Shown: piece by piece, positions 9,952-19,375 of the stretch | Numbering within the stretch: position 1 is the first letter of the stretch | How the letters are laid out: the number at the start of each line of letters is the position of its first letter | Source of the DNA: Bradyrhizobium sp. | Lineage (GTDB): Bacteria; Pseudomonadota; Alphaproteobacteria; Rhizobiales; Xanthobacteraceae | DNA length: 64,000 nucleotides | Assembly (NCBI RefSeq): GCF_030646015.1 | Contig: NZ_JAUSLT010000067.1 | Span: 27,484-91,483, forward strand | Reading direction: 5' to 3' | Made by a program: the position numbers and the translations under genes | The notes under the pieces: model-generated | Database searches by the model: none | Seen by the model: the letters and a program-made list of their open reading frames with translations, nothing else | Told to the model about the DNA's origin: nothing

Positions 9952-11073
9952 ATGATTGCAATTCCTGATGGGATTTCCGTGAAGACCGAGTTGATTGACC
10001 GCATCTACGAATGCTCGTTTGTGCCGGAACTGTGGCCCGGCGTGCTGGACGAGCTGGCCCACCTCACGGATTCGCGTGGCGGCCTGTTGTTCTCGGCCCG
10101 CGACCGGGTCCTGAAATGGACCGCGTCCGCGAACTTGAACGATATTTTCCGGTCCTACGTCGAGGACGGGTGGTTTTCACGTTGTCCGCGCCGGATCTGC
10201 CTGTTTGGAAAGACGCTGCCGGCCTTCTTCGTCGAGCATGATTTCTGGACGCAGGAACAGCTCGACAGCAATCCGATCTACCGGGACTTCTTTCGCCCGC
10301 GCGGGCTCGGCTGGTCCGCCGGTACCGGTCTGCAATTGCCTACCGGCGATCATATCGTCTTCAGCATTGAGCGCGATCACAGCCGCGGACCGATCGAAAA
10401 AGAGCGAGTCGAATTGCTGAACGAGCTGCGCTCTCATCTGGCGCGCAGCGCCTTCGTTGCGGCCCGGCTGGGGTTGCAGCGCGCCAGGGGCGCCAAGGAG
10501 GCGCTGACAGCGATGGGATTGCCCGCGCTGCTGCTCGGCCAGGACGGCACGGTGATCGAAGCCAATCCCCTGATCGAGGATTTGCCCGACCATTTGCAAT
10601 GGCGTGCGCAAAACCGCATCGCGCTGGCGGATGGCCACGCCAACGAGCTGTTGCGGGCAGCGCTTGCCGCGCTCGATACCAATGCCGAATTGTCCGTCCG
10701 CTCGTTTCCGCTGCGTGACGCCGACGACAAAGCGGCCCTGGTGGTTCATCTCATTCCGATCCGGCGCTCCGCCCACGACATCTTTGCCGGCAGCTACGCG
10801 CTGCTGGTGGTGACGCCGGTGTCGGCCCCGGCAGCGCCGCCGGTAGAACTGATGCGCTCGCTGTTCGACCTGACCGTGTCGGAAGCCCGGGTGGCGCGGG
10901 GGCTTGCCGTCGGCGAGACTCTGGAGGAGATTGCCGTCAGCGGCGGGGTGGCCATCTCCACCGTCCGCTCGCAGCTGCGTCAGGTGCTGGAAAAAACCGG
11001 ATGCGCCCGCCAGGCCGAAGTGGTGTCGCTGCTGGCCAATGTCACGCTTGATCGCAGCACGGCGAGGAATTAG
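9952..11073 (+). CDS. LuxR-family transcriptional regulator
   Basis: C-terminal LuxR/FixJ HTH (LTVSEARVARGLAVGETLEEIAVSGGVAISTVRSQLRQVLEKTG). Co-directional with the lasso precursor ORF 94-112 nt downstream. Confidence 0.8.
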   Translation: MIAIPDGISVKTELIDRIYECSFVPELWPGVLDELAHLTDSRGGLLFSARDRVLKWTASANLNDIFRSYVEDGWFSRCPRRICLFGKTLPAFFVEHDFWTQEQLDSNPIYRDFFRPRGLGWSAGTGLQLPTGDHIVFSIERDHSRGPIEKERVELLNELRSHLARSAFVAARLGLQRARGAKEALTAMGLPALLLGQDGTVIEANPLIEDLPDHLQWRAQNRIALADGHANELLRAALAALDTNAELSVRSFPLRDADDKAALVVHLIPIRRSAHDIFAGSYALLVVTPVSAPAAPPVELMRSLFDLTVSEARVARGLAVGETLEEIAVSGGVAISTVRSQLRQVLEKTGCARQAEVVSLLANVTLDRSTARN

Positions 11074-11185
11074 CCTCGGATTCGGCGCGCCGCTTCATCT
11101 ATTTAGAGGATGACGCCCGGATTGGCCGACCGCACTATTGGCATGGCGTGATTTGCGCCTGAATCACATGAAATGGAGATATTTC

Positions 11186-11299
11186 GTGAAATCATACACC
11201 AAACCGACGCTCGTCAAGCTGGGTAGCCTCGCGCTGATCAAGTCCAATTCGACGGGACCGAGCACCGACGGCAAGAAGTATTCCGGCTTCTTCAAGTAA
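11186..11299 (+). CDS. putative lasso-peptide precursor (A peptide), 37 aa; not in the supplied ORF track
   Basis: GTG at 11186 lies 6 nt after GGAGA (11175-11179). An in-frame ATG at 11168 lacks an SD sequence. TAA stop at 11297-11299. Translation: VKSYTKPTLVKLGSLALIKSNSTGPSTDGKKYSGFFK. The leader matches the RRE-recognition motif Y-x2-P-x-L-x3-G. Third codon positions are GC-rich, and a hairpin plus T5 follows. Confidence 0.6.
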   Translation: MKSYTKPTLVKLGSLALIKSNSTGPSTDGKKYSGFFK

Positions 11300-11323
11300 G
11301 ACGGAAGCGTCGGCGAAATCCAG

Positions 11324-11355
11324 GCGGCGAGCTCCTCGCGGGCGCGCCGCTTTTT
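11324..11355 (+). terminator. putative rho-independent terminator after the precursor ORF
   Basis: GCGGCG...CGCCGC stem (11324-11350) followed by TTTTT (11351-11355). Confidence 0.45.
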
Positions 11356-11377
11356 CATGGCTAAAAGAGCTTCATGG

Positions 11378-13138
11378 TTACGAGGATCTGGCGGATATCA
11401 GCCCGGCGATCTCTCGTCCGATAGTCCGGTGGCCGACAAAAGCCTGCCGCCAGCCGAGATAGCCCATCAGGGCCATCGCCGAGCGGGTTGAGCTGGTCGC
11501 GATGCCGAACGAGAGCTGCTCCAGCGCGTAGTTCGCGGCCCGGCGGTCGATCCAGTCGTCGGGGGCCGTCCTGAGCAGGGCCGCGAAATACTCCCGCGCC
11601 TTGTTCACATAGGTCAGCTGAAATGAATTGAACACGAAGGTATCGTTCTGACGCCCGCGCAGGGATTCCGGCACGATGCCCTTCTGGGCTTCCCGCAGCA
11701 GCTCCTTGTAGCGGCCCTCGAAGTCATGGACGAGAAGGGCGCTCACCTCATCATAGACGAAGTCCAGCAACGGAAGATCGCAGAACGGCGAGGCGTCGGT
11801 CAGTCGCTTCGCGGCGAAATGGCTCTGCGTCACCGTCCGCGGCGCAGAAAAGTAACCCCAGTCATCGCAGATGATGCCGTCGCCGACCAATTCCCTTTCC
11901 CGGGTTTCACGCTCCGTCGAATAGGCGTGGAGAGTTCTGCCGCACCGCAGCCAGGGAACCGAATCGGTCAGCATGCGGCGCATGTTGACGTCGCTGACAT
12001 CGAACGGATTCCACCCCCTGTCGCCAAACATCCGGTTCAGCCGCTGGTGGATGCCTTCGGGAACGAGCGACAACAGGCTCTGCCAGCCGAGATTGGTGCG
12101 GCCGCGCGAAAGCAGCGCGCTGGCCGGGGGCAGGGCATTGGCGAAGTGCCGGTATTCCCGGCGCTGCAGCAGATAGGGAAGAAATGACGGCGCGCGCAGG
12201 AACAGCTGATCCGCGCCGAATCCGGTAAAGACCTGCGAGCCGGGTTCCGCCACATCGGCGACCGCTCGCGAAAACCAGTCGCCGAACCAGAAGAAATCGC
12301 TCGGCTCGTCGGAATAACCGGGGTTCTCGTCGACGCTGGTCGGAAGCTCTTCAGGGGGCATGACGACGAGATCGATCCCGTAGCGGTCCGCGACCTCGCG
12401 CGCATAGCCTTCGCTGATCGCGTGAGAGGGCAGGTTGGGCTGCGAGAACATCACGCCGCGAATACCAGAAGCCTGTTCGCCCAGCAGGCAGGCAATGAAG
12501 GACGAGTCGAGGCCGCCGGAGATCTCGACGCAAATTTTCGCATCCGGATTGGCTGCAAGGCGGCCCTTGATCGAGTCGCGCAGGATCGCCAGTATTTGCG
12601 GCGCAACGTCTTCGCGGCGCTGCGCGCCATCCAGCCGATAGCCGTAACGCCTTCGCACGAGTTGTTGCCGTGTAACGGGGCGACCAAGGCGAATCAATTC
12701 ACCGGGAAGGACCCTGCTGACATCAGCGAGAGGCGTTTCCGTGCTCAGGAACTGATAGCCGGGCACGAGCAGAACGTGCCTGGCGAAGTAATGTTCGTTC
12801 CAGCGGGAACTGGAAGCATCGAAGAAAAAGCCGAGGCGGTTGGCGACCGCGCCATCCCGCTCCCGATAGTAGATCTGATACTGCGACGTGAAGCTCTTGA
12901 ACGCGTAGGTGTCCTGATCCGTCACGATGATGGCGACGAAGTCGCCGACCGCCTTGGCGATCGCTGACGGACCCTCGCGATCAATCAGCGCGCCCAAATG
13001 ATCCAGCGCCCGACGCCTGACCTGGTTGTCGACCCGGAAGACGGCGCCCTCGATCAGAATTGTTCCCAAGGCACAATCAATCGTGCTGCAGTCTCGATCG
13101 GCGCTCCAGCGGGCTTTGGCAGCCGCGTTTGCGTTCAT
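11378..13138 (-). CDS. lasso peptide isopeptide-bond-forming cyclase (asparagine synthetase-like, McjC-type)
   Basis: 586 aa. PP-loop ATP-pyrophosphatase motif ICVEISGGLDSSFIACLL. Asn-synthase B-like architecture without a catalytic N-terminal Cys2. Sits next to the B1, B2 and D genes. Confidence 0.85.
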   Translation of the reverse strand: MNANAAAKARWSADRDCSTIDCALGTILIEGAVFRVDNQVRRRALDHLGALIDREGPSAIAKAVGDFVAIIVTDQDTYAFKSFTSQYQIYYRERDGAVANRLGFFFDASSSRWNEHYFARHVLLVPGYQFLSTETPLADVSRVLPGELIRLGRPVTRQQLVRRRYGYRLDGAQRREDVAPQILAILRDSIKGRLAANPDAKICVEISGGLDSSFIACLLGEQASGIRGVMFSQPNLPSHAISEGYAREVADRYGIDLVVMPPEELPTSVDENPGYSDEPSDFFWFGDWFSRAVADVAEPGSQVFTGFGADQLFLRAPSFLPYLLQRREYRHFANALPPASALLSRGRTNLGWQSLLSLVPEGIHQRLNRMFGDRGWNPFDVSDVNMRRMLTDSVPWLRCGRTLHAYSTERETRERELVGDGIICDDWGYFSAPRTVTQSHFAAKRLTDASPFCDLPLLDFVYDEVSALLVHDFEGRYKELLREAQKGIVPESLRGRQNDTFVFNSFQLTYVNKAREYFAALLRTAPDDWIDRRAANYALEQLSFGIATSSTRSAMALMGYLGWRQAFVGHRTIGREIAGLISARSS

Positions 13139-13204
13139 TGCAGGCTCCGATAGTTATCGGTTACTCTCCTGGGGCAGAGCAGTCTTACGGAAATCGTCGC
13201 ATTC

Positions 13205-13600
13205 ATGAGCGCATCAATTTTGTGTTTGTCCCATTTCTCCACGAAGCTTTTCGGGATTGACCGAGCCATCACTTTTTTCCGATGGCTGGGACGCGCCCGC
13301 GGGCCCGGCCGCTCGCCAAATGCAACAGCAGAGGATCTTGCCGGCCGCGCGATACGTGGCATGCAGCTATTGCCGCTCAGGATCGAGTGTCTCGATCAGG
13401 CGGTTGCTACGTGGTACGTCCTGAACCGTCATGGCCATCCGGCTTCCCTCAGGATCGGCATGCGGCTGTCGCCGCTGTCGGGCCACGCCTGGGTGATATG
13501 CAATGAGCAAACGTTCATAAAAACCCCCGGCATGGAAGATTTCACGGTCGTGGCTTCCTACCCGCCCTGGGTGGAAACCAGCTGCGTAAATTTCAACTGA
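13205..13600 (+). CDS. lasso peptide biosynthesis B2 protein (transglutaminase-like leader peptidase)
   Basis: LLPLRIECLDQAVATWYVLNRHGHPASLRIGMRLSPLSGHAWVICNEQTF matches the conserved C-L...G...L..G...HAW core of McjB C-terminal/B2 proteins. Confidence 0.8.
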   Translation: MSASILCLSHFSTKLFGIDRAITFFRWLGRARGPGRSPNATAEDLAGRAIRGMQLLPLRIECLDQAVATWYVLNRHGHPASLRIGMRLSPLSGHAWVICNEQTFIKTPGMEDFTVVASYPPWVETSCVNFN

Positions 13601-13830
13601 ACGAGTTCGGCAACGAGTTCTTCGAAGTCGTCCCGAATTTCCTGGCGCTCGGCGCCGTACTCGCCCGCCAGCCGATTGACGACTTCATCCAGGTCGGCCT
13701 CGAGCCCGAGCCGCAGCATCCGCGCAGCCGTTTCATTGAGGCCGTAGGAATCGCCTGTCTTCACCGAGAACAGGACGTCCTTTCCTTCGACATTGGTGAG
13801 CGTCGTGCCGGGAGCCAATCGAATATGCAT
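13558..13830 (-). CDS. lasso peptide biosynthesis B1 protein (PqqD-family RiPP recognition element)
   Basis: 90 aa. PqqD pattern: VEGKDVLFSVKTGDSYGLNETAARMLRL...LDEVVNRLAGEYG...EIRDDFEELVAELVQL. Confidence 0.75.
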   Translation of the reverse strand: MHIRLAPGTTLTNVEGKDVLFSVKTGDSYGLNETAARMLRLGLEADLDEVVNRLAGEYGAERQEIRDDFEELVAELVQLKFTQLVSTQGG

Positions 13831-13877
13831 TTTCCAACCGCTTTAAGATGAAGGAGCCTCAGGGAGAACCGTGGAAG

Positions 13878-15740
13878 TCAGGGGATTTGGAAATCAGGGG
13901 ATTTGGGCGGCGCGAAAGAAGAGTGTTCGCCGCCGGGGAGGCGTCCGCCTGTCTGATGTTGCCAGAGAGAGGCGTAAAGCCCCCCGCTGATGATGAGCTG
14001 TTCGTGCGATCCTTCCTCGAGAATGCGTCCCGCATCCAGTACGACAATCCTGTCCATTCGGGCCAGCGTCGAAAGCCGATGCGCAATGGTAATCACTGTT
14101 TTCCCCACCATCAGCGTGTCCAGCTGCTCCTGGATCGCGTGCTCCGCCTCGGAGTCGAGCGCCGCGGTGGCTTCGTCCAGCACCAGGATGGGGGCGTTCT
14201 TGAGCAGCGTGCGCGCCAGAATGATGCGCTGGCGTTGCCCGCCCGACAATTTCGCACCGCGCTCGCCGGCGCTTGAATCGAGCCCGGTGCGGCCGTCCTC
14301 GTCCTGTAGCTCCGACACGAATTGCGCGACCCGGGACTGGTTCAGCGCACGCTCGAGTTCGCCCGGCGTGGCATCGGGCTTGCCGCACATGATGTTGTCG
14401 CGAATGGAGCGGTGCAGCAGCGCCGTGTCCTGGGTGACGACCCCGATGCAGGATCGCAGGCTGTCCATCGAGACGTCCTGAATGCTTTGTCCGTCGATCA
14501 CGATGGAGCCGTCCTGGATATCGTAGAGCCGCAACAGAAGGCTGACGAGCGTCGACTTGCCCGCGCCGGATCGCCCGACAAGACCGACCCGCTCGCCCGG
14601 CGCCAGGGTCAGGGTAAATTGCTCGAACAGCGGGCGCTCGCTGGAGTACCCGAAACCGATTTGCCTGAACTCGATCGCGCCGGCCTTGATCTCCAGCGTC
14701 TTCGCGTTGGGCATATCGACCATCGTATTGGGCGCCGCGATCGACTCCATCCCTTGCTTAACGTCGCCGAGATTCTGGAATATGCCAGAGACCTCCCAGG
14801 CGACCCAGCCGCCGGTGCTTGCCAACTGCCATACCAGGGGCAGCGCCATCGCCACGGCCTCGGCTGGAATGGACTCGTTCAGCCACAGACTGACGCCGAT
14901 AACGCCGGTGCCTGTCAGCAGTGCCGTATTGAGAAGCGTCAGGCTGGTCATGAAGCCGGTGATGGCCTGCATGTGGCGCAGCTGGGTATCGTTGTGCGAC
15001 AGCAGCGCGCGGCGAACGTGATCGTTGTCGGTCGCGGCATAGGAGAAGAGTTTGATGGTGAGAATGTTGCTGTAGCAGTCGACGATCCCGGCCATCAAAT
15101 CCGAATAGGCCTGCGAACTGCCTTCGGCCCTTGTCCGCAGACGAGGCACATAATAACGCAGCAACAGGCCGTAGCCGCAAAACCAGCCCGCAATGGGAAG
15201 CGCCAGTCGCCAGTCCGCACCTGCAAGCAGGAAGGCGCTGGCGCCACCATACATCGCGAGATACCACACCGCGCGAATGGCGGCCTCGGCGGTTTCGCGC
15301 AAGGAGCCGGCGGTATGCATCACCCGGTGGGCGAGGCGGCCGGGAAAATCATTCTGGAAGAATTGCCAACTCTGGTTCACCACCAGCCAATGGCTGATCC
15401 AGCGCATGCGCGATGTGACGCCGGGAACGAGGTAGCTGTTTCGCAGATGCAGATCGAGATAGATCAGGGCAGGGCGGACGAGTCCGATCGCGACCAGAAG
15501 CGCGACAAGTGTCGGCCAACGCTCCAGCCAGGCCTGCCACCGGTCGGGCTGACCGACGAAAGCCACCACCTTGCCGACGAACACGGACACCATCGCGTCG
15601 GCGCAGGCGACGCCGAAGCCGCAGATGAACAGCCAGACGAAAATCTTCTTATGCTCGGCGAGAAAGTATCGGTAGAACGCGAATAACGAGGAACGGGGGA
15701 CGTCGGGCGGCGGGGCGGCGGCAATATCAATTTGGTTCAT
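13878..15740 (-). CDS. ABC transporter permease/ATP-binding protein (McjD-like lasso peptide exporter)
   Basis: 620 aa. N-terminal 6-TM exporter domain, Walker [10 protein letters not shown], signature LSGGQRQR and Walker B ILVLDEATAALD. Confidence 0.9.
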   Translation of the reverse strand: MNQIDIAAAPPPDVPRSSLFAFYRYFLAEHKKIFVWLFICGFGVACADAMVSVFVGKVVAFVGQPDRWQAWLERWPTLVALLVAIGLVRPALIYLDLHLRNSYLVPGVTSRMRWISHWLVVNQSWQFFQNDFPGRLAHRVMHTAGSLRETAEAAIRAVWYLAMYGGASAFLLAGADWRLALPIAGWFCGYGLLLRYYVPRLRTRAEGSSQAYSDLMAGIVDCYSNILTIKLFSYAATDNDHVRRALLSHNDTQLRHMQAITGFMTSLTLLNTALLTGTGVIGVSLWLNESIPAEAVAMALPLVWQLASTGGWVAWEVSGIFQNLGDVKQGMESIAAPNTMVDMPNAKTLEIKAGAIEFRQIGFGYSSERPLFEQFTLTLAPGERVGLVGRSGAGKSTLVSLLLRLYDIQDGSIVIDGQSIQDVSMDSLRSCIGVVTQDTALLHRSIRDNIMCGKPDATPGELERALNQSRVAQFVSELQDEDGRTGLDSSAGERGAKLSGGQRQRIILARTLLKNAPILVLDEATAALDSEAEHAIQEQLDTLMVGKTVITIAHRLSTLARMDRIVVLDAGRILEEGSHEQLIISGGLYASLWQHQTGGRLPGGEHSSFAPPKSPDFQIP

Positions 15741-16180: not shown

Positions 16181-17002
16181 CTATCGAATAAACGATCCCC
16201 ATAGCGCGGCATTGGCCAGCGTTCCCAGTTCATTCATGTGGCAACCGTCATGCGGATTGCGGCCGTCGTTGCCGATCAAATCGGTGTCCGGCCCTGGCCG
16301 AATGTTCAGTTGATCGTTGACGGCGGACAGCTGGGCGGCGCGAACGGCCGCGACGTTGGTGGGCGCGTACACATCGCACTTGGTGGTGCGCGACAGATAG
16401 AAGGGCGCATCAAACCCGGCCGCGCGAAATCGTTTGACGAATTGATGCAGCAGCGAAACATATTGCTGCTGCGTCGTGGTCAGGATCGCGTCCTTTTCGC
16501 CCTGCTGAACCAGAAAGTGGGTTGGCCGGAGTTTTGCGGCCTGAAGGGCTGACATGGCGCGGTCGATCCGCTCGGCGTGCTCGTTGTTCAGCGCCGACAG
16601 CGATGCGCCTTCCACGGCAAAGGATGCGACGATGACGCGATCATACCGTCCCGCCTGGATCAGGAGGTCGCCAAGGCGCGTTCCGAAGTTGCCGCCGGCG
16701 CCATCGGCCCCCAGCAGCGGATCGGCAGCCGCGAAGCATTTGCCCGAAGCGGGGTCGAAATTGTCAACGGCTTCACGGGCGGAGTATCGGGTGTTGCCGT
16801 AATTGGCCGCGTTGCTTTGGCCCAGCAGCACGATCACGGCCGTTCGATCGGAATCCGGCAGGCAAGGTCGTTCAATCCGCGGGAGCGGCGGGAGCGCGGT
16901 CAGATTGATCTGGCTGCTGCGGGGACTGACGAGATGGCTGCCGATCGCACCAATCAGCACGCCACCGATCAGGAACGCGAGATTGCGTCGCATTGGAATC
17001 AT
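16181..17002 (-). CDS. SGNH/sialate-O-acetylesterase-like hydrolase (secreted or membrane-anchored)
   Basis: Internal ATG at 17002 overlaps the upstream stop (ATGA). N-terminal TM/signal segment. GQSNA motif (VLLGQSNAANYG) typical of DUF303/sialate O-acetylesterase-type SGNH enzymes, and a C-terminal DGCHMN motif. Confidence 0.6.
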   Translation of the reverse strand: MIPMRRNLAFLIGGVLIGAIGSHLVSPRSSQINLTALPPLPRIERPCLPDSDRTAVIVLLGQSNAANYGNTRYSAREAVDNFDPASGKCFAAADPLLGADGAGGNFGTRLGDLLIQAGRYDRVIVASFAVEGASLSALNNEHAERIDRAMSALQAAKLRPTHFLVQQGEKDAILTTTQQQYVSLLHQFVKRFRAAGFDAPFYLSRTTKCDVYAPTNVAAVRAAQLSAVNDQLNIRPGPDTDLIGNDGRNPHDGCHMNELGTLANAALWGSFIR

Positions 17003-18183
17003 GACACCGCTGGAACGAGGACCGGCTTGTCGGTCGCGTGGCGTGCTTTCTTCAATCTGTTCTGCCGCCATCGATCGATCGGTGCCTCGACCCATCTGTA
17101 AAGCATGATCGAGGCGATCAGGGACATCGCCAATGCGAGGCACGCGCCCGCAATGGTCTCCGGCAGCAATATCCATCCAAACAGGAAGTGACAGATATAG
17201 AGCGGGTACGACAGTTCGCCGAGATGCCGGTCCCAGGCGATATCACGGGTCGATTCGAACAGGCGCGGCACGCCGATGATGACGGCGCAGAGCAGCGACA
17301 ACGATGCCAGCCGCGAAACGCCATCCCATTTGCTCAGGGCCAGCGCAGCGAACAATGACACCGCCGCGGTCGAGAGCAGGCGATACACCTGCTTGCGCTC
17401 CTCGTCGGTCCGCGAAACATAGGCGTAGTAACCGAGCGAACCCGTCAGGAACAGCGCGATCTCGGAGGGAAAGAACCGGTACGTCCATGGTTCTCCACTG
17501 AAGCCGAAGCCCCAGAGCAGCGCGATCCGCAGGATCAGGCTCCCGGCGATGGCTGCCGCAATGACGAGGGGTCCGCGTCGCACAACGAATGGCGCGAGCA
17601 GGTAGAAATAGAATTCCAGCCCCAGCGTCCACGCCTGGGGAATCGGCGCGAACGTATACAGCAGGCCCGACATCCCGCCTGGATGCAGCGTGGAGGCCAA
17701 TGCGCCATTGCTGATGAACAGGAAGAAGTAGATCTCCTGACCGACGATGAAGATCTGCGACCCTATCCAGAACGCCAGACCGGGCAGGTCCAGCGCAGCA
17801 ATCGGCCCCCAATTGGGGGCCACCGCGAGCGACAGAACCAGCACGACGGCATAGGTTGGCCAGAGTCTCAGCACGCGATTGGAGATGAACAGAAAATACG
17901 AGCCGGGCCCATATTTTTCATTCAAGACCAGCGCCATGTAGAAGCCGGAGATGACGAAGAAGCTCTGTACCGCGATGTCGCTGGTCGGAAATCCGAGCGG
18001 GATCCCGAAATGGACGAGCACGACGGAAAGCGCGAGAAACAATCGAAGGCTGCCCATGGATAAATGTTGGCGGGACAATCTTGAGGAAGTCTTAATGATT
18101 CTCGAAAACCTGGCGCGGCCAGAGCTTTCGCGGCGTCCTGTTTCCCGCCCTGGGCTAGGAGTTGCGTCTGCCGAACAGGACAT
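16999..18183 (-). CDS. acyltransferase-3 family membrane O-acyltransferase (start uncertain: 18183 or ATG at 18057)
   Basis: Multi-TM protein. LRLFLALSVVLVHF...QSFFVISGFYMA is typical of the acyltransferase_3 family. Confidence 0.8.
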   Translation of the reverse strand: MSCSADATPSPGRETGRRESSGRARFSRIIKTSSRLSRQHLSMGSLRLFLALSVVLVHFGIPLGFPTSDIAVQSFFVISGFYMALVLNEKYGPGSYFLFISNRVLRLWPTYAVVLVLSLAVAPNWGPIAALDLPGLAFWIGSQIFIVGQEIYFFLFISNGALASTLHPGGMSGLLYTFAPIPQAWTLGLEFYFYLLAPFVVRRGPLVIAAAIAGSLILRIALLWGFGFSGEPWTYRFFPSEIALFLTGSLGYYAYVSRTDEERKQVYRLLSTAAVSLFAALALSKWDGVSRLASLSLLCAVIIGVPRLFESTRDIAWDRHLGELSYPLYICHFLFGWILLPETIAGACLALAMSLIASIMLYRWVEAPIDRWRQNRLKKARHATDKPVLVPAVS

Positions 18184-19375
18184 GCCCCGATCGCCACAGG
18201 CGCTCGCAGGCGTCGCGAGCGAAATTCGTCCTTTGCGCCGGCTCGAGCCGCGCGAACACGGCGTGGGACAGAATTTCCGATATGCTCCTGTTTCCGTCGG
18301 CCTGCTCCAGCAGCAAGGCTTCCGCTCTCGATATCGGGATCCTCATTTCCCCCTGAGGCGAGGGGCGCGTCAGCATCAATGCGTTGGCATCACCGGCGAG
18401 CCGGGTGCCGGCGCGAATGAACGGGACATACGACAGATAATCATCGGTGTCGAAACGCGTGAGGAAGCGTGCGCTTTGCGGCTTCCTGACGAAAAAATCG
18501 TGCCGGTCGTTCAGCACGGCAAGATTGTCGATGACGGCCCACTGCTCCGCGGCCGGCAGCGCCAAAACCCTGTCCAGCATCTCTCCGCTCAGAAACCGAT
18601 CGGCGCAGTAGAGCGCGTTGTCGTTCCAGCCGAAGAAAACGAGCCCGGCCGTTTCGACAAACGTCATGACCTCCGGTACCGAATAGGCCCGGTCCTGGGG
18701 GTGAAGCAGCATGTCCACGACCCCCGCATCGTCGGCAAGGTCATTGGGAAGTTTGCCGGTCGTCGAGATCAGAGGATGATTCGGCGGGACAAACTTCAAG
18801 AGCTCGCGGGCCATCCTGAGGCCCCCGGCATCCGGACCGGCGCCAAGCCGCCGCAGGGTATCCTGGAGTAAATAGACGCCAGCGCGCCCCGCCGTCCCGT
18901 AAAGCATGATGGCCATGCTTCCCTCGAGATCGAGTACGTCCGCGAGTGCCCGGAGTCCGGCATCCGGATCCGGAAGGTGATGCAGGACGCCGGTGGAAAT
19001 GATCAGGTCAAAGGAGCGATTCAACCTGGCGACGTCGAGCAGGCTCACCTGCCGAAGTTCGAGGTTGCTGAGGCCGTGTCGATCGCGATGGCGGTTGGAG
19101 TGCGCGAGGCTGGCCTCGGAAAGATCGATGCCGACGACCGAACAGTCTGGGTTATTGAGGGCGATCAGAGGCGCCTGCGAAGAGCCGCAACCGGCGCACA
19201 GGATGCGCAGGTCCTGCCGCGGCCGCCCCTCCGGCCACAACTGAACGCCCGCAAATCGGGGGTCGCATGTCAGCGGTCCCCATTGCTTCAGGAATTTCTC
19301 GGCGTCCTCGATTGGCGGCGGATAGCTGTACGCCTCGTACTGCTTCCTGACCGCCTCTGTAACTGTATCTTCCAT
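18155..19375 (-). CDS. class I SAM-dependent methyltransferase with extended C-terminal region (possible RRE-like wHTH)
   Basis: Motif I ILCAGCGSS; VVGIDLS; post-I/II LIISTGVLHHLPDP. About 230 further residues end in IPISRAEALLLEQADGNRSISEILSH...FARDACERLWRSGHVLF. Confidence 0.8.
   Translation of the reverse strand: MEDTVTEAVRKQYEAYSYPPPIEDAEKFLKQWGPLTCDPRFAGVQLWPEGRPRQDLRILCAGCGSSQAPLIALNNPDCSVVGIDLSEASLAHSNRHRDRHGLSNLELRQVSLLDVARLNRSFDLIISTGVLHHLPDPDAGLRALADVLDLEGSMAIMLYGTAGRAGVYLLQDTLRRLGAGPDAGGLRMARELLKFVPPNHPLISTTGKLPNDLADDAGVVDMLLHPQDRAYSVPEVMTFVETAGLVFFGWNDNALYCADRFLSGEMLDRVLALPAAEQWAVIDNLAVLNDRHDFFVRKPQSARFLTRFDTDDYLSYVPFIRAGTRLAGDANALMLTRPSPQGEMRIPISRAEALLLEQADGNRSISEILSHAVFARLEPAQRTNFARDACERLWRSGHVLFGRRNS

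What the first reader, a model, noticed from the sequence alone, without database searches (positions are those of the whole stretch)
11168..11299. Unannotated 37-aa precursor with a textbook RRE-binding leader but a non-canonical leader/core junction
**Seen in the sequence.**
- GTG at 11186 is preceded by GGAGA at a 6-nt spacing. An in-frame ATG at 11168 has no SD sequence.
- Translation: VKSYTKPTLVKLGSLALIKSNSTGPSTDGKKYSGFFK, with stop TAA at 11297 followed by a hairpin and T5.
- The track instead lists an antisense 64-aa ORF (11164-11358), which has AT-rich third positions and no RBS.

**Established.** B1/RRE proteins recognise Y-x2-P-x-L-x3-G-x5-T-x in lasso leaders, and the ring is closed onto Asp/Glu at core position 7-9.

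**Observed against that.** Y4-x2-P7-x-L9-x3-G13 fits exactly. The residue where Thr(-2) is expected is Lys19, and the only Thr-Gly (T23-G24) would leave Asp only 5 residues into the core.

**Inference.** D28 is the single acidic residue in the C-terminal half, so it must be the acceptor. Residue 1 is then S20 (9-membered ring), N21 (8-membered) or S22 (7-membered, with Ser at -2). The tail Y/FF could act as steric plugs.
Basis: partly seen in the sequence, partly recalled or inferred. Interest (0 to 1): 0.8.

Follow-up and report, generated by a model that had tools for sequence, protein, structure and literature searches.

The report
Conserved lasso-peptide precursor lacking Thr(-2)
The 37-codon ORF is a real, strongly conserved precursor gene of an uncharacterised lasso peptide whose leader lacks the usual threonine before the cleavage site, so annotation pipelines miss it and sequence alone cannot fix where the leader is cut off.

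Summary
GTG 11186 lies 6 nt after GGAGA. The ORF encodes VKSYTKPTLVKLGSLALIKSNSTGPSTDGKKYSGFFK and ends in TAA, followed by a hairpin and T5.

It sits in a complete lasso cluster: cyclase C, protease B2, PqqD/RRE B1 and an ABC exporter D. The same 37-codon gene is in all 21 related genome loci. Its third codon positions vary in 36 of 37 codons, and the SD, start and terminator hairpin are conserved. I found 92 distinct versions in Alphaproteobacteria, Betaproteobacteria and a Polyangiaceae MAG. The antisense 64-aa ORF has stop codons in 14 of 21 homologues and is spurious.

Asp28 is invariant and is the only possible ring acceptor. Ser22 as residue 1 is excluded, because that position is H, A, S or P. 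Two junctions remain:
- **K19|S20** (Ile-2, Lys-1, Ser1-Asp9), which I favour at about 0.55.
- **S20|N21** (Lys-2, Asn1-Asp8), at about 0.35.

Each has one experimental precedent: BsfA for Ile(-2) and metanodin for Asn1. The B1 tyrosine thought to contact Thr(-2) is an invariant serine here.

This is a new member of a known kind and moderately interesting. Mass spectrometry would settle it: 1888.90 versus 1801.86 Da.

The parts
9952..11073 (+). LuxR-family regulator gene directly upstream of the precursor. It is probably a cluster-situated regulator. It is conserved only in the closest (Bradyrhizobium-like) loci.
   Evidence: Pfam GerE gives a weak hit and NCBIfam BagY/FevT gives 1.8e-7, below the cutoff. 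It is present next to A in L001-L004 and L019 only.
11145..11159 (+). Small 5' hairpin (GGCGT-GATTT-GCGCC) upstream of the SD. Its role is unknown; it could stabilise the mRNA, act as an attenuator or be an operator.
   Evidence: A hairpin at the same place, with a different stem sequence, occurs in most of the alphaproteobacterial loci. No Rfam family matches.
11175..11179 (+). Shine-Dalgarno box GGAGA, 6 nt before the start codon.
   Evidence: Read directly. A GGAG box is conserved in 21 of the 22 copies.
11186..11299 (+). Precursor gene A, 37 codons plus TAA.
   Evidence: It is conserved in all related loci, shows a purifying-selection pattern, and exists in 92 distinct versions.
11186..11242 (+). 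Leader under the favoured reading, residues 1-19 (VKSYTKPTLVKLGSLALIK). Tyr4, Pro7 and Leu9 form the RRE-binding motif, with Ile18 at -2 and Lys19 at -1. Under the rival reading the leader ends at 11245, after Ser20.
   Evidence: Y4, K6 and P7 are invariant. I18 occurs in 91 of 92 sequences and K/R19 in 92 of 92. NCBIfam lasso_leader_L3 matches residues 4-16 at E=0.039, below the cutoff.
11243..11296 (+). Core under the favoured reading, residues 20-37 (SNSTGPSTDGKKYSGFFK). The ring would be Ser1-Asp9 and the tail GKKYSGFFK. Under the rival reading the core starts at 11246 (Asn21) and the ring is Asn1-Asp8.
   Evidence: Asp28 is invariant, and Tyr32, Gly34, Phe36 and Lys37 are invariant.
11322..11355 (+). 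Intrinsic terminator of the precursor transcript: a GC-rich hairpin followed by T5.
   Evidence: A hairpin is present in all 22 copies, and 15 of them have a T-run directly after it.
11378..13138 (-). Lasso cyclase C (Asn-synthetase-like, 586 aa), convergent with A.
   Evidence: Pfam Asn_synthase gives 1.3e-17 and NCBIfam gives weak macrolactam/lasso cyclase hits. An SGGLDSS PP-loop is visible in the translation.
13205..13600 (+). Leader peptidase B2 (transglutaminase-like Cys protease, 131 aa). It is divergent from C and converges on B1, overlapping it.
   Evidence: NCBIfam lasso_biosyn_B2 gives 4e-19, above the cutoff, and Pfam Transglut_core3 gives 3.4e-18. Cys62, His94 and Asp112 are invariant.
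13558..13830 (-). B1, a PqqD-type RiPP recognition element (90 aa).
   Evidence: Pfam PqqD gives 2.6e-12. The closest PDB relatives are TbiB1 and TfuB1. Ser28 occupies the position of FusE Tyr33.
13878..15740 (-). ABC exporter D (620 aa, fused TMD-NBD), for export and probably self-immunity.
   Evidence: Pfam ABC_membrane and ABC_tran both match. It is conserved next to B1 in 18 of the 21 genome loci.

Best explanation
Window 11186-11299 (+) is the precursor gene (A) of a class II-type lasso peptide. The neighbouring B1, B2, C and D genes make the peptide.

**Proposed mechanism.**
1. The gene is transcribed as a short unit of its own, ending at the hairpin-T5 terminator, and is translated from GTG 11186.
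2. B1 (the PqqD RRE) binds the leader through Tyr4, Pro7 and Leu9.
3. The B2 cysteine protease, presented with the leader by B1, cuts after Leu17-Ile18-Lys19. Ile18 is then the penultimate (-2) residue that replaces the usual Thr, and Lys19 is -1.
4. The cyclase C adenylates the side chain of Asp28 and joins it to the new alpha-amine of Ser20. This gives a 9-residue Ser1-Asp9 ring through which the tail GKKYSGFFK is threaded. Tyr32 and Phe36 are the likely plugs.
5. The ABC transporter D exports the 18-residue cationic peptide. The expected monoisotopic mass is 1888.90 Da.

**What is shown.** The gene is real and under purifying selection. All four enzyme families are present. Asp28, Ile18 and Lys19 are invariant or nearly so. 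Thr(-2) is absent, and so is the B1 tyrosine that partners it.

**What is inferred.** Everything about processing is inferred, including the exact scissile bond, the threading, the export and any bioactivity.
For: **Cluster identity.** Searches identify C, B2, B1 and D.

**Linkage.**
- A lies in the module in all 21 genome loci, even where it has moved (L010-L012, L016).
- It also lies in the module in a Polyangiaceae locus.
- It is in 19 of the 45 metagenome loci fetched with B2. Most of the remaining loci are contigs of under 4 kb.

**Coding.**
- The codon-position pattern of variable columns is 18/12/36.
- The SD and start are conserved.

**Junction after Lys19.**
1. Ile18 is one of only five columns invariant across the three related precursor families. 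It is I in 91 of 92 sequences of this family.
2. Ile(-2), followed by Arg(-1) and Gly1, is experimentally validated for BsfA (..AAIIR|GTSGNEVD).
3. Position 20 is S, G, A or T (82/6/3/1). G, S and A are among the N-terminal residues seen so far in lasso peptides.
4. In the sister family the block L-I-K-G is invariant over diverged cores. That family's B1 is 44%, B2 39% and C 28% identical to ours. The next residue varies (N, S, and G in a leader-homologous peptide). Gly then sits 8 residues before the only Asp, giving a 15-mer Gly1-Asp8 peptide.
5. Among 21 reference B2 proteases, the profile of our B2 scores best against five Acidobacteriaceae B2s. Their precursors have predicted junctions ..TIK|G..TIQ|S and ..CTK|G. 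The validated Thr(-2) enzymes FusB, PadeB2 and StmB2 score worst.
6. The Tyr-to-junction distance is not fixed in nature. It is -15 in the paeninodin group and -16 to -18 among the predicted Acidobacteriaceae junctions.
7. FusE Tyr33, which the literature describes as contacting Thr(-2), is an invariant Ser in this family and Phe in the sister family.
Against: - The canonical ruler (Tyr-17, Pro-14, Leu-12) puts the cut one residue later, after Ser20.
- The precursor aligns without gaps to BsfA, whose cleavage site is validated. It also aligns without gaps to a TbiA-like family (..RYGRVEAITS|GQTGPASDGK..).
- In those alignments Lys19 falls on the -2 residue, Asn21 on Gly1 and Asp28 on Asp8. The ring residues x-T-G-P-x-S-D-G-K also match.
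- Asn21 is invariant in 92 of 92 sequences while position 20 varies. That is the pattern expected if Asn21 is the ring-forming residue.
- One metagenomic variant has Lys instead of Ile at position 18 (P0087).
- Asn1 is chemically possible, as metanodin shows.
- A 7-residue ring closed on Asp exists in huascopeptin. The sister family therefore does not rule out the later cut.
- No product has been observed.
Confidence: 0.55

Rival explanations
1. The gene and enzymes are the same, but B2 cuts one residue later, after Ser20. Lys19 is then the -2 residue, Ser20 is -1, and Asn21 is residue 1. The ring is Asn1-Asp8 (8 residues) and the product is a 17-mer of 1801.86 Da. The B1/B2 pair would have evolved an S2 pocket for a basic side chain, and the cyclase would use an N-terminal Asn.
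For: - The canonical spacing Tyr(-17), Pro(-14), Leu(-12) and Gly(-8) is kept exactly.
- The precursor aligns without gaps to BsfA (validated) and to the TbiA-like family. Asn21 falls on Gly1 and Asp28 on Asp8, and the ring residues are shared.
- Asn21 is invariant in 92 of 92 sequences. Position 20 varies (S, G, A, T) as a -1 residue might.
- Position 21 in related families runs G, S, N, which is a one-step mutational series.
- Asn1 is verified by MS in metanodin.
- The P0087 variant (Lys18, Thr20) would still be processable.
- The loss of the B1 tyrosine fits a remodelled S2 pocket.
Against: - I found no report of a basic residue at -2 in the papers and reference sets read here. The -2 residues seen or tolerated so far are small or beta-branched: T, I, V, A.
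- The sister family would then have an invariant -1 Gly, a variable residue 1 (N/S) and a 7-residue Asp ring in a 14-mer.
- Ile18 would be an invariant -3 residue with no known role.
- The closest reference B2 enzymes belong to systems with I/T(-2)-K/Q(-1)|G/S junctions.
Confidence: 0.35
2. Residue 1 is Ser22, giving a 7-residue Ser1-Asp7 ring with Ser20 at -2.
For: Ser at -2 resembles Thr. Seven-residue rings closed on Asp exist, as in huascopeptin.
Against: Position 22 is H in 43, A in 29, S in 18 and P in 2 of 92 sequences. The ring-forming residue would therefore be His in about half of the family and Pro in some members. Position 20 (-2 under this reading) is G, A or T in 10 sequences.
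Confidence: 0.02
3. The peptide is made and the leader is removed, but the mature product is not a simple threaded lasso. It could be a branched-cyclic peptide, or it could carry a further modification from an enzyme encoded elsewhere.
For: Threading cannot be seen in sequence. The cyclase is divergent, scoring only 65 bits against Pfam Asn_synthase and far below the NCBIfam lasso cyclase cutoffs.
Against: - The conserved module holds only A, B1, B2, C and D.
- The neighbouring methyltransferase, acyltransferase and SGNH genes are not conserved with it.
- Bulky invariant residues Tyr32 and Phe36 sit where plugs are expected.
Confidence: 0.06
4. The real gene is the minus-strand 64-aa ORF 11164-11358, and the plus-strand ORF is a chance reading frame.
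Against: - Its frame has 1-3 stops in 14 of 21 homologues.
- Variation falls on the third positions of the plus frame.
- It has no Pfam hit.
- The plus-strand SD, start and terminator are conserved.
Confidence: 0.01

Closest known systems
BsfA / Bsf cluster of Bradymonas sediminis (Duan et al. 2023, PMC10368454)
   Same: - It is a split B1/B2 lasso system.
- Its leader has YxxPxL but no Thr(-2).
- The junction is Ile-(basic)|small (..IIR|G), and cleavage there was proven in vitro.
- Under my favoured reading our junction, ..LIK|S, is of the same type.
   Different: - BsfA keeps Tyr at -17, whereas ours would have it at -16.
- BsfA has a Gly1-Asp8 ring.
- The Bsf cluster has a kinase that phosphorylates Ser3; ours has none.
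- BsfB1 keeps the FusE-Tyr33-equivalent tyrosine, while ours has Ser.
- B2 similarity is low: 20 bits in the profile comparison.
Predicted Ile/Val(-2) precursors of Acidobacteriaceae (Duan et al. 2023, Suppl. Fig. 14)
   Same: - The junctions ..STIK|G, ..STIQ|S and ..ECTK|G resemble our L-I-K-S/G.
- Their B2 proteases are the best matches to ours in the reference set.
- The Tyr-to-junction distance varies there from -16 to -18.
   Different: - Their junctions are predictions, not measurements.
- Their cores are longer, acidic and unrelated (..AYQADE).
- B2 identity to ours is only about 35% over the catalytic half.
Metanodin (Negri et al. 2025, PMC12670498)
   Same: It is described as the first lasso peptide with Asn as the ring-forming residue 1, and its precursor was also missed by antiSMASH. 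It is the precedent for the rival reading, Asn1-Asp8.
   Different: - It has a normal Thr(-2), a fused B protein and an isopeptidase.
- Its ring has 9 residues.
- Its core is unrelated.
- It comes from a gammaproteobacterial (Steroidobacterales) source.
TbiA (Thermobaculum terrenum) and the TbiA-like precursors found here (P0031, P0090, P0092)
   Same: - The leader aligns without gaps: Y-x2-P-x-L-x2-[YL]-G-x4-I-..
- The ring sequence is shared: x-T-G-P-x-S-D-G-K, against our N-H-T-G-P-S-S-D-G-K.
   Different: - They have the canonical Thr(-2) and Gly1 where ours has Lys and Asn.
- The one context recovered (L022) has a cyclase with a GATase domain only 26% identical to ours over a partial alignment. 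It also has a MATCAP peptidase and an HprK-like protein, with no B1 or B2 on the contig.
Sister family found here (P0081 and relatives; locus L024)
   Same: - The leader is nearly identical: MKKYQKPVVVKLGSVLLIK-G.
- B1, B2 and C are homologous at 44%, 39% and 28% identity.
- Thr(-2) is absent, and the B1 tyrosine is lost (Phe).
   Different: - The core is different and shorter: GNKNVKSDMTTVGFL.
- Asp lies one residue closer to the leader.
- The genes are collinear, A>B1>C>B2, and the locus has no ABC exporter.
- This family is also uncharacterised.
Canonical clade b of triculamin-like lasso peptides (PMC12070363)
   Same: It is a canonical B1/B2/C cluster in Pseudomonadota whose leader lacks Thr(-2), so antiSMASH misses the precursor.
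   Different: - The leader also lacks the Y/P/L motif.
- The core is a Lys/Arg-rich PGDG type.
- The cyclases are stated to be phylogenetically distinct.

Membership tests
Lasso peptide biosynthetic gene cluster (RiPP class) | Asn-synthetase-like ATP-dependent macrolactam cyclase (C) with a PP-loop | tested here: met
   Pfam Asn_synthase gives 1.3e-17, above the cutoff, for window 11378-13138(-). SGGLDSS is visible in the translation. The NCBIfam lasso and macrolactam cyclase models hit only far below their cutoffs, so the enzyme is divergent.
Lasso peptide biosynthetic gene cluster (RiPP class) | Transglutaminase-like cysteine protease (B or B2) with a Cys-His-Asp triad | tested here: met
   NCBIfam lasso_biosyn_B2 scores 69.3 bits against a cutoff of 33. 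Cys62, His94 and Asp112 are invariant in the alignment of family and sister-family B2.
Lasso peptide biosynthetic gene cluster (RiPP class) | PqqD-type RiPP recognition element (B1, or the N-terminal domain of B) | tested here: met
   Pfam PqqD gives 2.6e-12. The closest solved structures are TbiB1 and TfuB1.
Lasso peptide biosynthetic gene cluster (RiPP class) | Short precursor gene genetically linked to the enzymes | tested here: met
   It is present in 21 of 21 genome loci and stays in the module when rearranged.
Lasso precursor peptide (canonical B1/B2-type leader) | Leader motif Tyr-x2-Pro-x-Leu for RRE binding | tested here: met
   Y4 and P7 are invariant. Position 9 is L, V, I, F or M in 92 sequences. 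NCBIfam lasso_leader_L3 matches residues 4-16 but only at 14 bits against a cutoff of 19.
Lasso precursor peptide (canonical B1/B2-type leader) | Thr at the penultimate leader position (-2) | tested here: not met
   No Thr lies at positions 18-20. The -2 residue is Ile18 or Lys19, depending on the junction. The B1 residue equivalent to FusE Tyr33 is Ser in all 22 family members examined.
Lasso precursor peptide (canonical B1/B2-type leader) | Asp or Glu at core position 7-9 as ring acceptor | tested here: met
   Asp28 is invariant and is the only acidic residue after the leader. It falls at position 9 or 8 for the two viable junctions.
Lasso precursor peptide (canonical B1/B2-type leader) | Small residue (Gly, Ala, Ser or Cys) as core residue 1 | tested here: inconclusive
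   The feature is met if the core starts at position 20 (S82, G6, A3, T1). It is not met if the core starts at the invariant Asn21.
Lasso peptide (mature product) | Isopeptide ring with the C-terminal tail threaded and held by bulky plug residues | not testable with these tools
   The only evidence is indirect: Tyr32 and Phe36 are invariant in the 9-residue tail. Testing this needs MS/MS, protease and heat challenge, or NMR.
Ile(-2) lasso systems (BsfA type) | Ile at -2, shown by the site of B2 cleavage | not testable with these tools
   The sequence is compatible, and Ile18-Lys19|Ser20 resembles BsfA Ile-Arg|Gly. The site of cleavage was not observed.
Ile(-2) lasso systems (BsfA type) | Associated HprK-like kinase that phosphorylates the precursor | tested here: not met
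   The conserved module has no kinase gene. It holds only A, C, B2, B1 and D.

The most novel reading that the evidence does not exclude
The canonical ruler holds, and this widespread family is cut after Ser20. It would then be the first lasso system whose leader peptidase and RRE pair accepts a basic residue (Lys or Arg) at the key -2 position. It would also be the second, and by far the most widespread, case of Asn as the ring-forming residue 1. The invariant Tyr-to-Ser change in B1 would mark the remodelled S2 pocket.
Probability: 0.33. Interest if true: 0.6.

Novelty: new member of a known kind. Interest (0 to 1): 0.42.

Why it matters
1. **A blind spot in genome mining.** The precursor of a lasso family present in many soil and water Bradyrhizobium, Afipia, Tardiphaga, Xanthobacteraceae and Beijerinckiaceae genomes is named only 'hypothetical protein' where it is named at all. 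It is also present in Betaproteobacteria and a Polyangiaceae MAG. Tools that require Thr(-2) miss such genes, as stated for antiSMASH in PMC12070363 and PMC12670498.

2. **A natural test of how the cleavage site is chosen.** Here the two rules used to place a lasso cleavage site disagree by one residue. One rule counts the distance from the YxxPxL motif. The other looks at the identity of the -2 and +1 residues. One mass measurement would show which rule the B1/B2 machinery follows.

3. **An unusually conserved peptide.** The core is far better conserved than its enzymes. It is about 78% identical where the cyclase is 43% identical. This points to a conserved molecular target for a small cationic peptide with its own exporter. 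Cultured carriers exist, namely Afipia carboxidovorans OM5 and Tardiphaga alba.

Tried and rejected
- **NCBIfam and Pfam on the peptide itself.** Only a sub-threshold lasso_leader_L3 hit came back. It cannot carry the claim; conservation does.
- **Promoter and terminator consensus scan.** It found no promoter and missed the terminator, because the loop exceeds its limit. Folding and comparison were used instead. The window hairpin alone is not significant against shuffles (z = -0.66).
- **Literature search for the core strings.** No paper holds them. No paper on lasso peptides of Afipia, Oligotropha, Azonexus or Orrella describes this peptide.
- **Triculamin-like family.** I considered it because of the D-G-K motif and the mention of Bradyrhizobium. 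I rejected it because that core (PGDG, with Lys at positions 2, 3 and 5) and its leader are different.
- **Argument from ring size.** I first argued that the sister family must start at Gly because a 7-residue ring closed on Asp is unknown. I withdrew this after finding huascopeptin, which has a Gly1-Asp7 ring.
- **Kretsch et al. 2023.** The paper is not held. Its point about FusE Tyr33 is taken second-hand from Duan et al., and the residue was located through the FusE sequence in their supplement.
- **Search for intermediate B2 families.** The metagenome scan gave only this family and its sister family. The last protein search listed only close B2s.
- **Uninformative loci.** L068 is a decayed remnant, L072 has no visible precursor, and L027 has leader-like peptides without lasso enzymes.
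- **Cyclase divergence against residue-20/21 changes.** The comparison was uninformative.
- **Neighbouring genes.** The SGNH, acyltransferase and methyltransferase genes at 16181-19375 were considered as tailoring enzymes. I rejected them because they are absent from all related loci.
Full report
**1. The observation**

- GGAGA lies at 11175-11179, then six bases, then GTG at 11186.
- The ORF has 37 codons and reads VKSYTKPTLVKLGSLALIKSNSTGPSTDGKKYSGFFK.
- TAA is at 11297-11299.
- A GC-rich hairpin at about 11322-11350 is followed by TTTTT at 11351-11355 (-24.9 kcal/mol). On its own the hairpin is not better than shuffles of this GC-rich stretch (z = -0.66).
- An in-frame ATG at 11168 and a minus-strand 64-aa ORF at 11164-11358 also exist.

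**2. Surroundings**

The ORF sits at the edge of a complete lasso peptide gene set.

| Gene | Coordinates | Evidence |
|---|---|---|
| Cyclase C | 11378-13138 (-) | Asn-synthetase-like, Pfam 1.3e-17, SGGLDSS loop |
| Protease B2 | 13205-13600 (+) | NCBIfam lasso_biosyn_B2 4e-19, above cutoff |
| RRE B1 | 13558-13830 (-) | PqqD, 2.6e-12 |
| ABC exporter D | 13878-15740 (-) | ABC_membrane and ABC_tran |
| LuxR-type regulator | 9952-11073 (+) | weak GerE and BagY/FevT hits |

The peptide itself gives only a sub-threshold match to the NCBIfam lasso leader model (residues 4-16, 14 bits against a cutoff of 19).

The orientation is unusual. A converges on C. C and B2 diverge from a 66-nt spacer. B2 and B1 converge and overlap by 43 nt.

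**3. Is the gene real?**

A scan of one genome per species with the cyclase found 21 loci. They come from Bradyrhizobium, Afipia, Xanthobacteraceae, Beijerinckiaceae and other Hyphomicrobiales, and from the Betaproteobacteria Orrella and Azonexus.
- Every locus encodes the peptide as an ORF of exactly 114 nt.
- The five-gene module is conserved. A stays in it even where it has moved: upstream of D in L010-L012, and rearranged in L016.
- In a Polyangiaceae MAG the order is B1> A> <C B2>.
- Variable alignment columns fall 18, 12 and 36 of 37 on codon positions 1, 2 and 3. Invariant residues use 2-4 codons.
- The GGAG box and the GTG/ATG start are conserved. The upstream ATG is not. GTG 11186 is therefore the start.
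- Each locus has a hairpin after the stop with its own stem sequence. A T-run follows it in 15 of the 22 copies.
- The antisense frame carries stops in 14 of 21 homologues and has no family hit. It is a shadow ORF.
- The neighbouring SGNH, acyltransferase and methyltransferase genes (16181-19375) are absent from all related loci and are not part of the system.

Protein and metagenome searches raise the count to 92 distinct versions of the peptide. Where a source names them, the name is 'hypothetical protein', for example OCAR_7491 of Afipia carboxidovorans OM5.

**4. Conservation pattern**

The motif used to collect the sequences fixed T23, G24, P25, D28 and G29. Their invariance is shown independently.

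| Position(s) | Residues (of 92) |
|---|---|
| Y4, K6, P7 | invariant |
| G13 | 91 |
| 14-16 | variable |
| L17 | 85 |
| I18 | 91 |
| 19 | K 89, R 3 |
| 20 | S 82, G 6, A 3, T 1 |
| N21 | 92 |
| 22 | H 43, A 29, S 18, P 2 |
| 27 | S, T, V, I or G |
| D28, G29, Y32, G34, F36, K37 | invariant |
| 35 | F, N or Y |

The core is more conserved than the enzymes. The Polyangiaceae cyclase is 43% identical to ours, while the core there is GNATGPSTDGRKYAGFFK.

Asp28 is the only acidic residue after the leader, so it is the only possible ring acceptor. Position 22 cannot be residue 1, because it is His or Pro in many members.

**5. Where is the leader cut?**

Two readings survive.

*Reading A: cut after Lys19.* This gives Ile18 = -2, Lys19 = -1 and a Ser1-Asp9 ring. 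The evidence for it is as follows.
- Ile(-2)-Arg(-1)|Gly1 was proven by in vitro B1/B2 cleavage of BsfA. There, Ile(-2) cannot be replaced even by Thr, Val or Leu.
- Position 20 shows G, S and A, three of the residues the metanodin authors list as seen at position 1, plus one Thr.
- Ile18 is one of five columns invariant across three related precursor families.
- A sister family was found by profile search. Its enzymes are truly homologous: B1 44%, B2 39% and C 28% identical. It keeps L-I-K-G over several diverged cores, while the next residue varies. Gly lies eight residues before the only Asp.
- Among 21 reference B2 proteases, ours scores best against five Acidobacteriaceae enzymes. Their precursors are predicted to end ..TIK|G..TIQ|S and ..CTK|G. 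It scores worst against the validated Thr(-2) enzymes FusB, PadeB2 and StmB2.
- The distance from the Tyr to the junction is not constant in nature. It is -15 in the paeninodin group and -16 to -18 among the Acidobacteriaceae predictions.

*Reading B: cut after Ser20.* This gives Lys19 = -2 and an Asn1-Asp8 ring. The evidence for it is as follows.
- The precursor aligns without gaps to BsfA and to a TbiA-like family (..RYGRVEAITS|GQTGPASDGK..). Asn21 falls on Gly1 and Asp28 on Asp8, and the ring residues x-T-G-P-x-S-D-G-K match.
- Asn21 is invariant while position 20 varies.
- Asn1 has been verified by MS in metanodin.
- A 7-residue ring closed on Asp exists in huascopeptin. The sister family is therefore not decisive.
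- One variant, P0087, has Lys at position 18.

*Weighing the two.* Both readings agree that Thr(-2) is absent. The B1 residue that corresponds to FusE Tyr33 is described in the literature as contacting Thr(-2). It is Ser in all 22 family B1 proteins examined and Phe in the sister family, while TfuB1, TbiB1 and BsfB1 all have Tyr.

Reading A needs one unusual feature, the spacing, for which natural variation is documented. Reading B needs a basic -2 residue, for which I found no precedent, and the rare Asn1. I therefore put A at about 0.55 and B at about 0.35. Sequence alone cannot decide.

**6. Mechanism proposed (inferred)**
1. A short transcript is bounded by a 5' hairpin and the terminator.
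2. B1 binds Tyr4, Pro7 and Leu9.
3. B2 (Cys62, His94, Asp112) removes the leader.
4. C activates Asp28 and closes the ring around the tail GKKYSGFFK, with Tyr32 and Phe36 as plugs.
5. D exports the peptide. The product has a net charge of +2, from three Lys and a free C-terminus, since Asp28 and the N-terminus are used in the ring.

Expected masses are 1888.8955 Da for reading A and 1801.8635 Da for reading B.

**7. Comparison and novelty**

This is a lasso cluster by every enzyme criterion, and a precursor by linkage, leader motif and acceptor position. It fails the classical Thr(-2) criterion. That failure now has precedents: BsfA, triculamin-like clade b, and predicted Ile/Val/Ala(-2) precursors. 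Asn1 also has a precedent.

I found no description of this peptide or its family. I file it as a new, widespread, uncharacterised member of a known kind.

Its particular value is that the two rules for placing the cleavage site disagree here by one residue. A single mass measurement would show which rule the enzymes follow. If Lys(-2) and Asn1 prove right, it would be a new variant.

**8. What led nowhere**
- The consensus promoter and terminator scan.
- Rfam.
- The Kretsch 2023 paper, which is not held.
- The search for intermediate B2 families.
- Cyclase divergence against residue changes.

Noticed in passing
window 11378-15740; loci L001-L021, L073: The gene orientation is unusual and conserved. 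B2 lies on the opposite strand to D-B1 and C. It diverges from C across a 66-nt spacer and converges on B1, overlapping it by 43 nt in the window (13558-13600). The precursor converges on C. The distant sister family (L024) is simply collinear, A>B1>C>B2.
   Followed up: partly
window 11145-11159 (+): A small hairpin (GGCGT-GATTT-GCGCC) lies 15-25 nt upstream of the SD. Most of the alphaproteobacterial loci have a hairpin at the same place with a different stem sequence. In the Afipia loci it is followed by a T-run. It has no Rfam match and its function is unknown.
   Followed up: partly
L010:5130-5200, L011, L012 (after the precursor stop): Where the precursor gene sits upstream of D on the same strand, the hairpin after its stop codon lacks the T-run. 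That would allow read-through into the exporter gene, so it is a possible attenuator setting the precursor-to-enzyme ratio.
   Followed up: no
L033:98-208 and L033:2185-2295: This metagenome contig carries two copies of the precursor gene, about 2 kb apart and differing at three or four positions.
   Followed up: no
L022:1051-7885: A TbiA-like precursor (P0090, canonical Thr-2/Gly1, with a core resembling ours) overlaps the end of an Asn synthase that keeps a GATase domain. It is flanked by an ABC transporter, a MATCAP-family metallopeptidase, a methyltransferase and an HprK-like P-loop protein. No B1 or B2 lies on the 7.9-kb contig.
   Followed up: partly
L027:5553-5875: Two adjacent small ORFs (P0094, P0093) have the same leader as the sister family (..KLGSV.LIKG..). 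However, no cyclase, PqqD or transglutaminase gene lies within 5-8 kb. These are either orphan precursors or a different enzyme set.
   Followed up: partly
L068:5965-6518: An intact B2 gene lies next to a truncated B1 (53 aa), with no cyclase or precursor nearby. It looks like a decaying remnant of this cluster type.
   Followed up: partly
window 18155-19375 (-): This 406-aa SAM methyltransferase has its methyltransferase domain in residues ~50-160 and a long C-terminal part with no family hit. It is not conserved with the lasso module.
   Followed up: no
window 16181-18183 (-): The listed SGNH/SASA-like esterase ORF and acyltransferase_3 ORF overlap by about 180 nt (16999-17176). This suggests that the esterase start listed by the ORF finder is too far upstream.
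   Followed up: no
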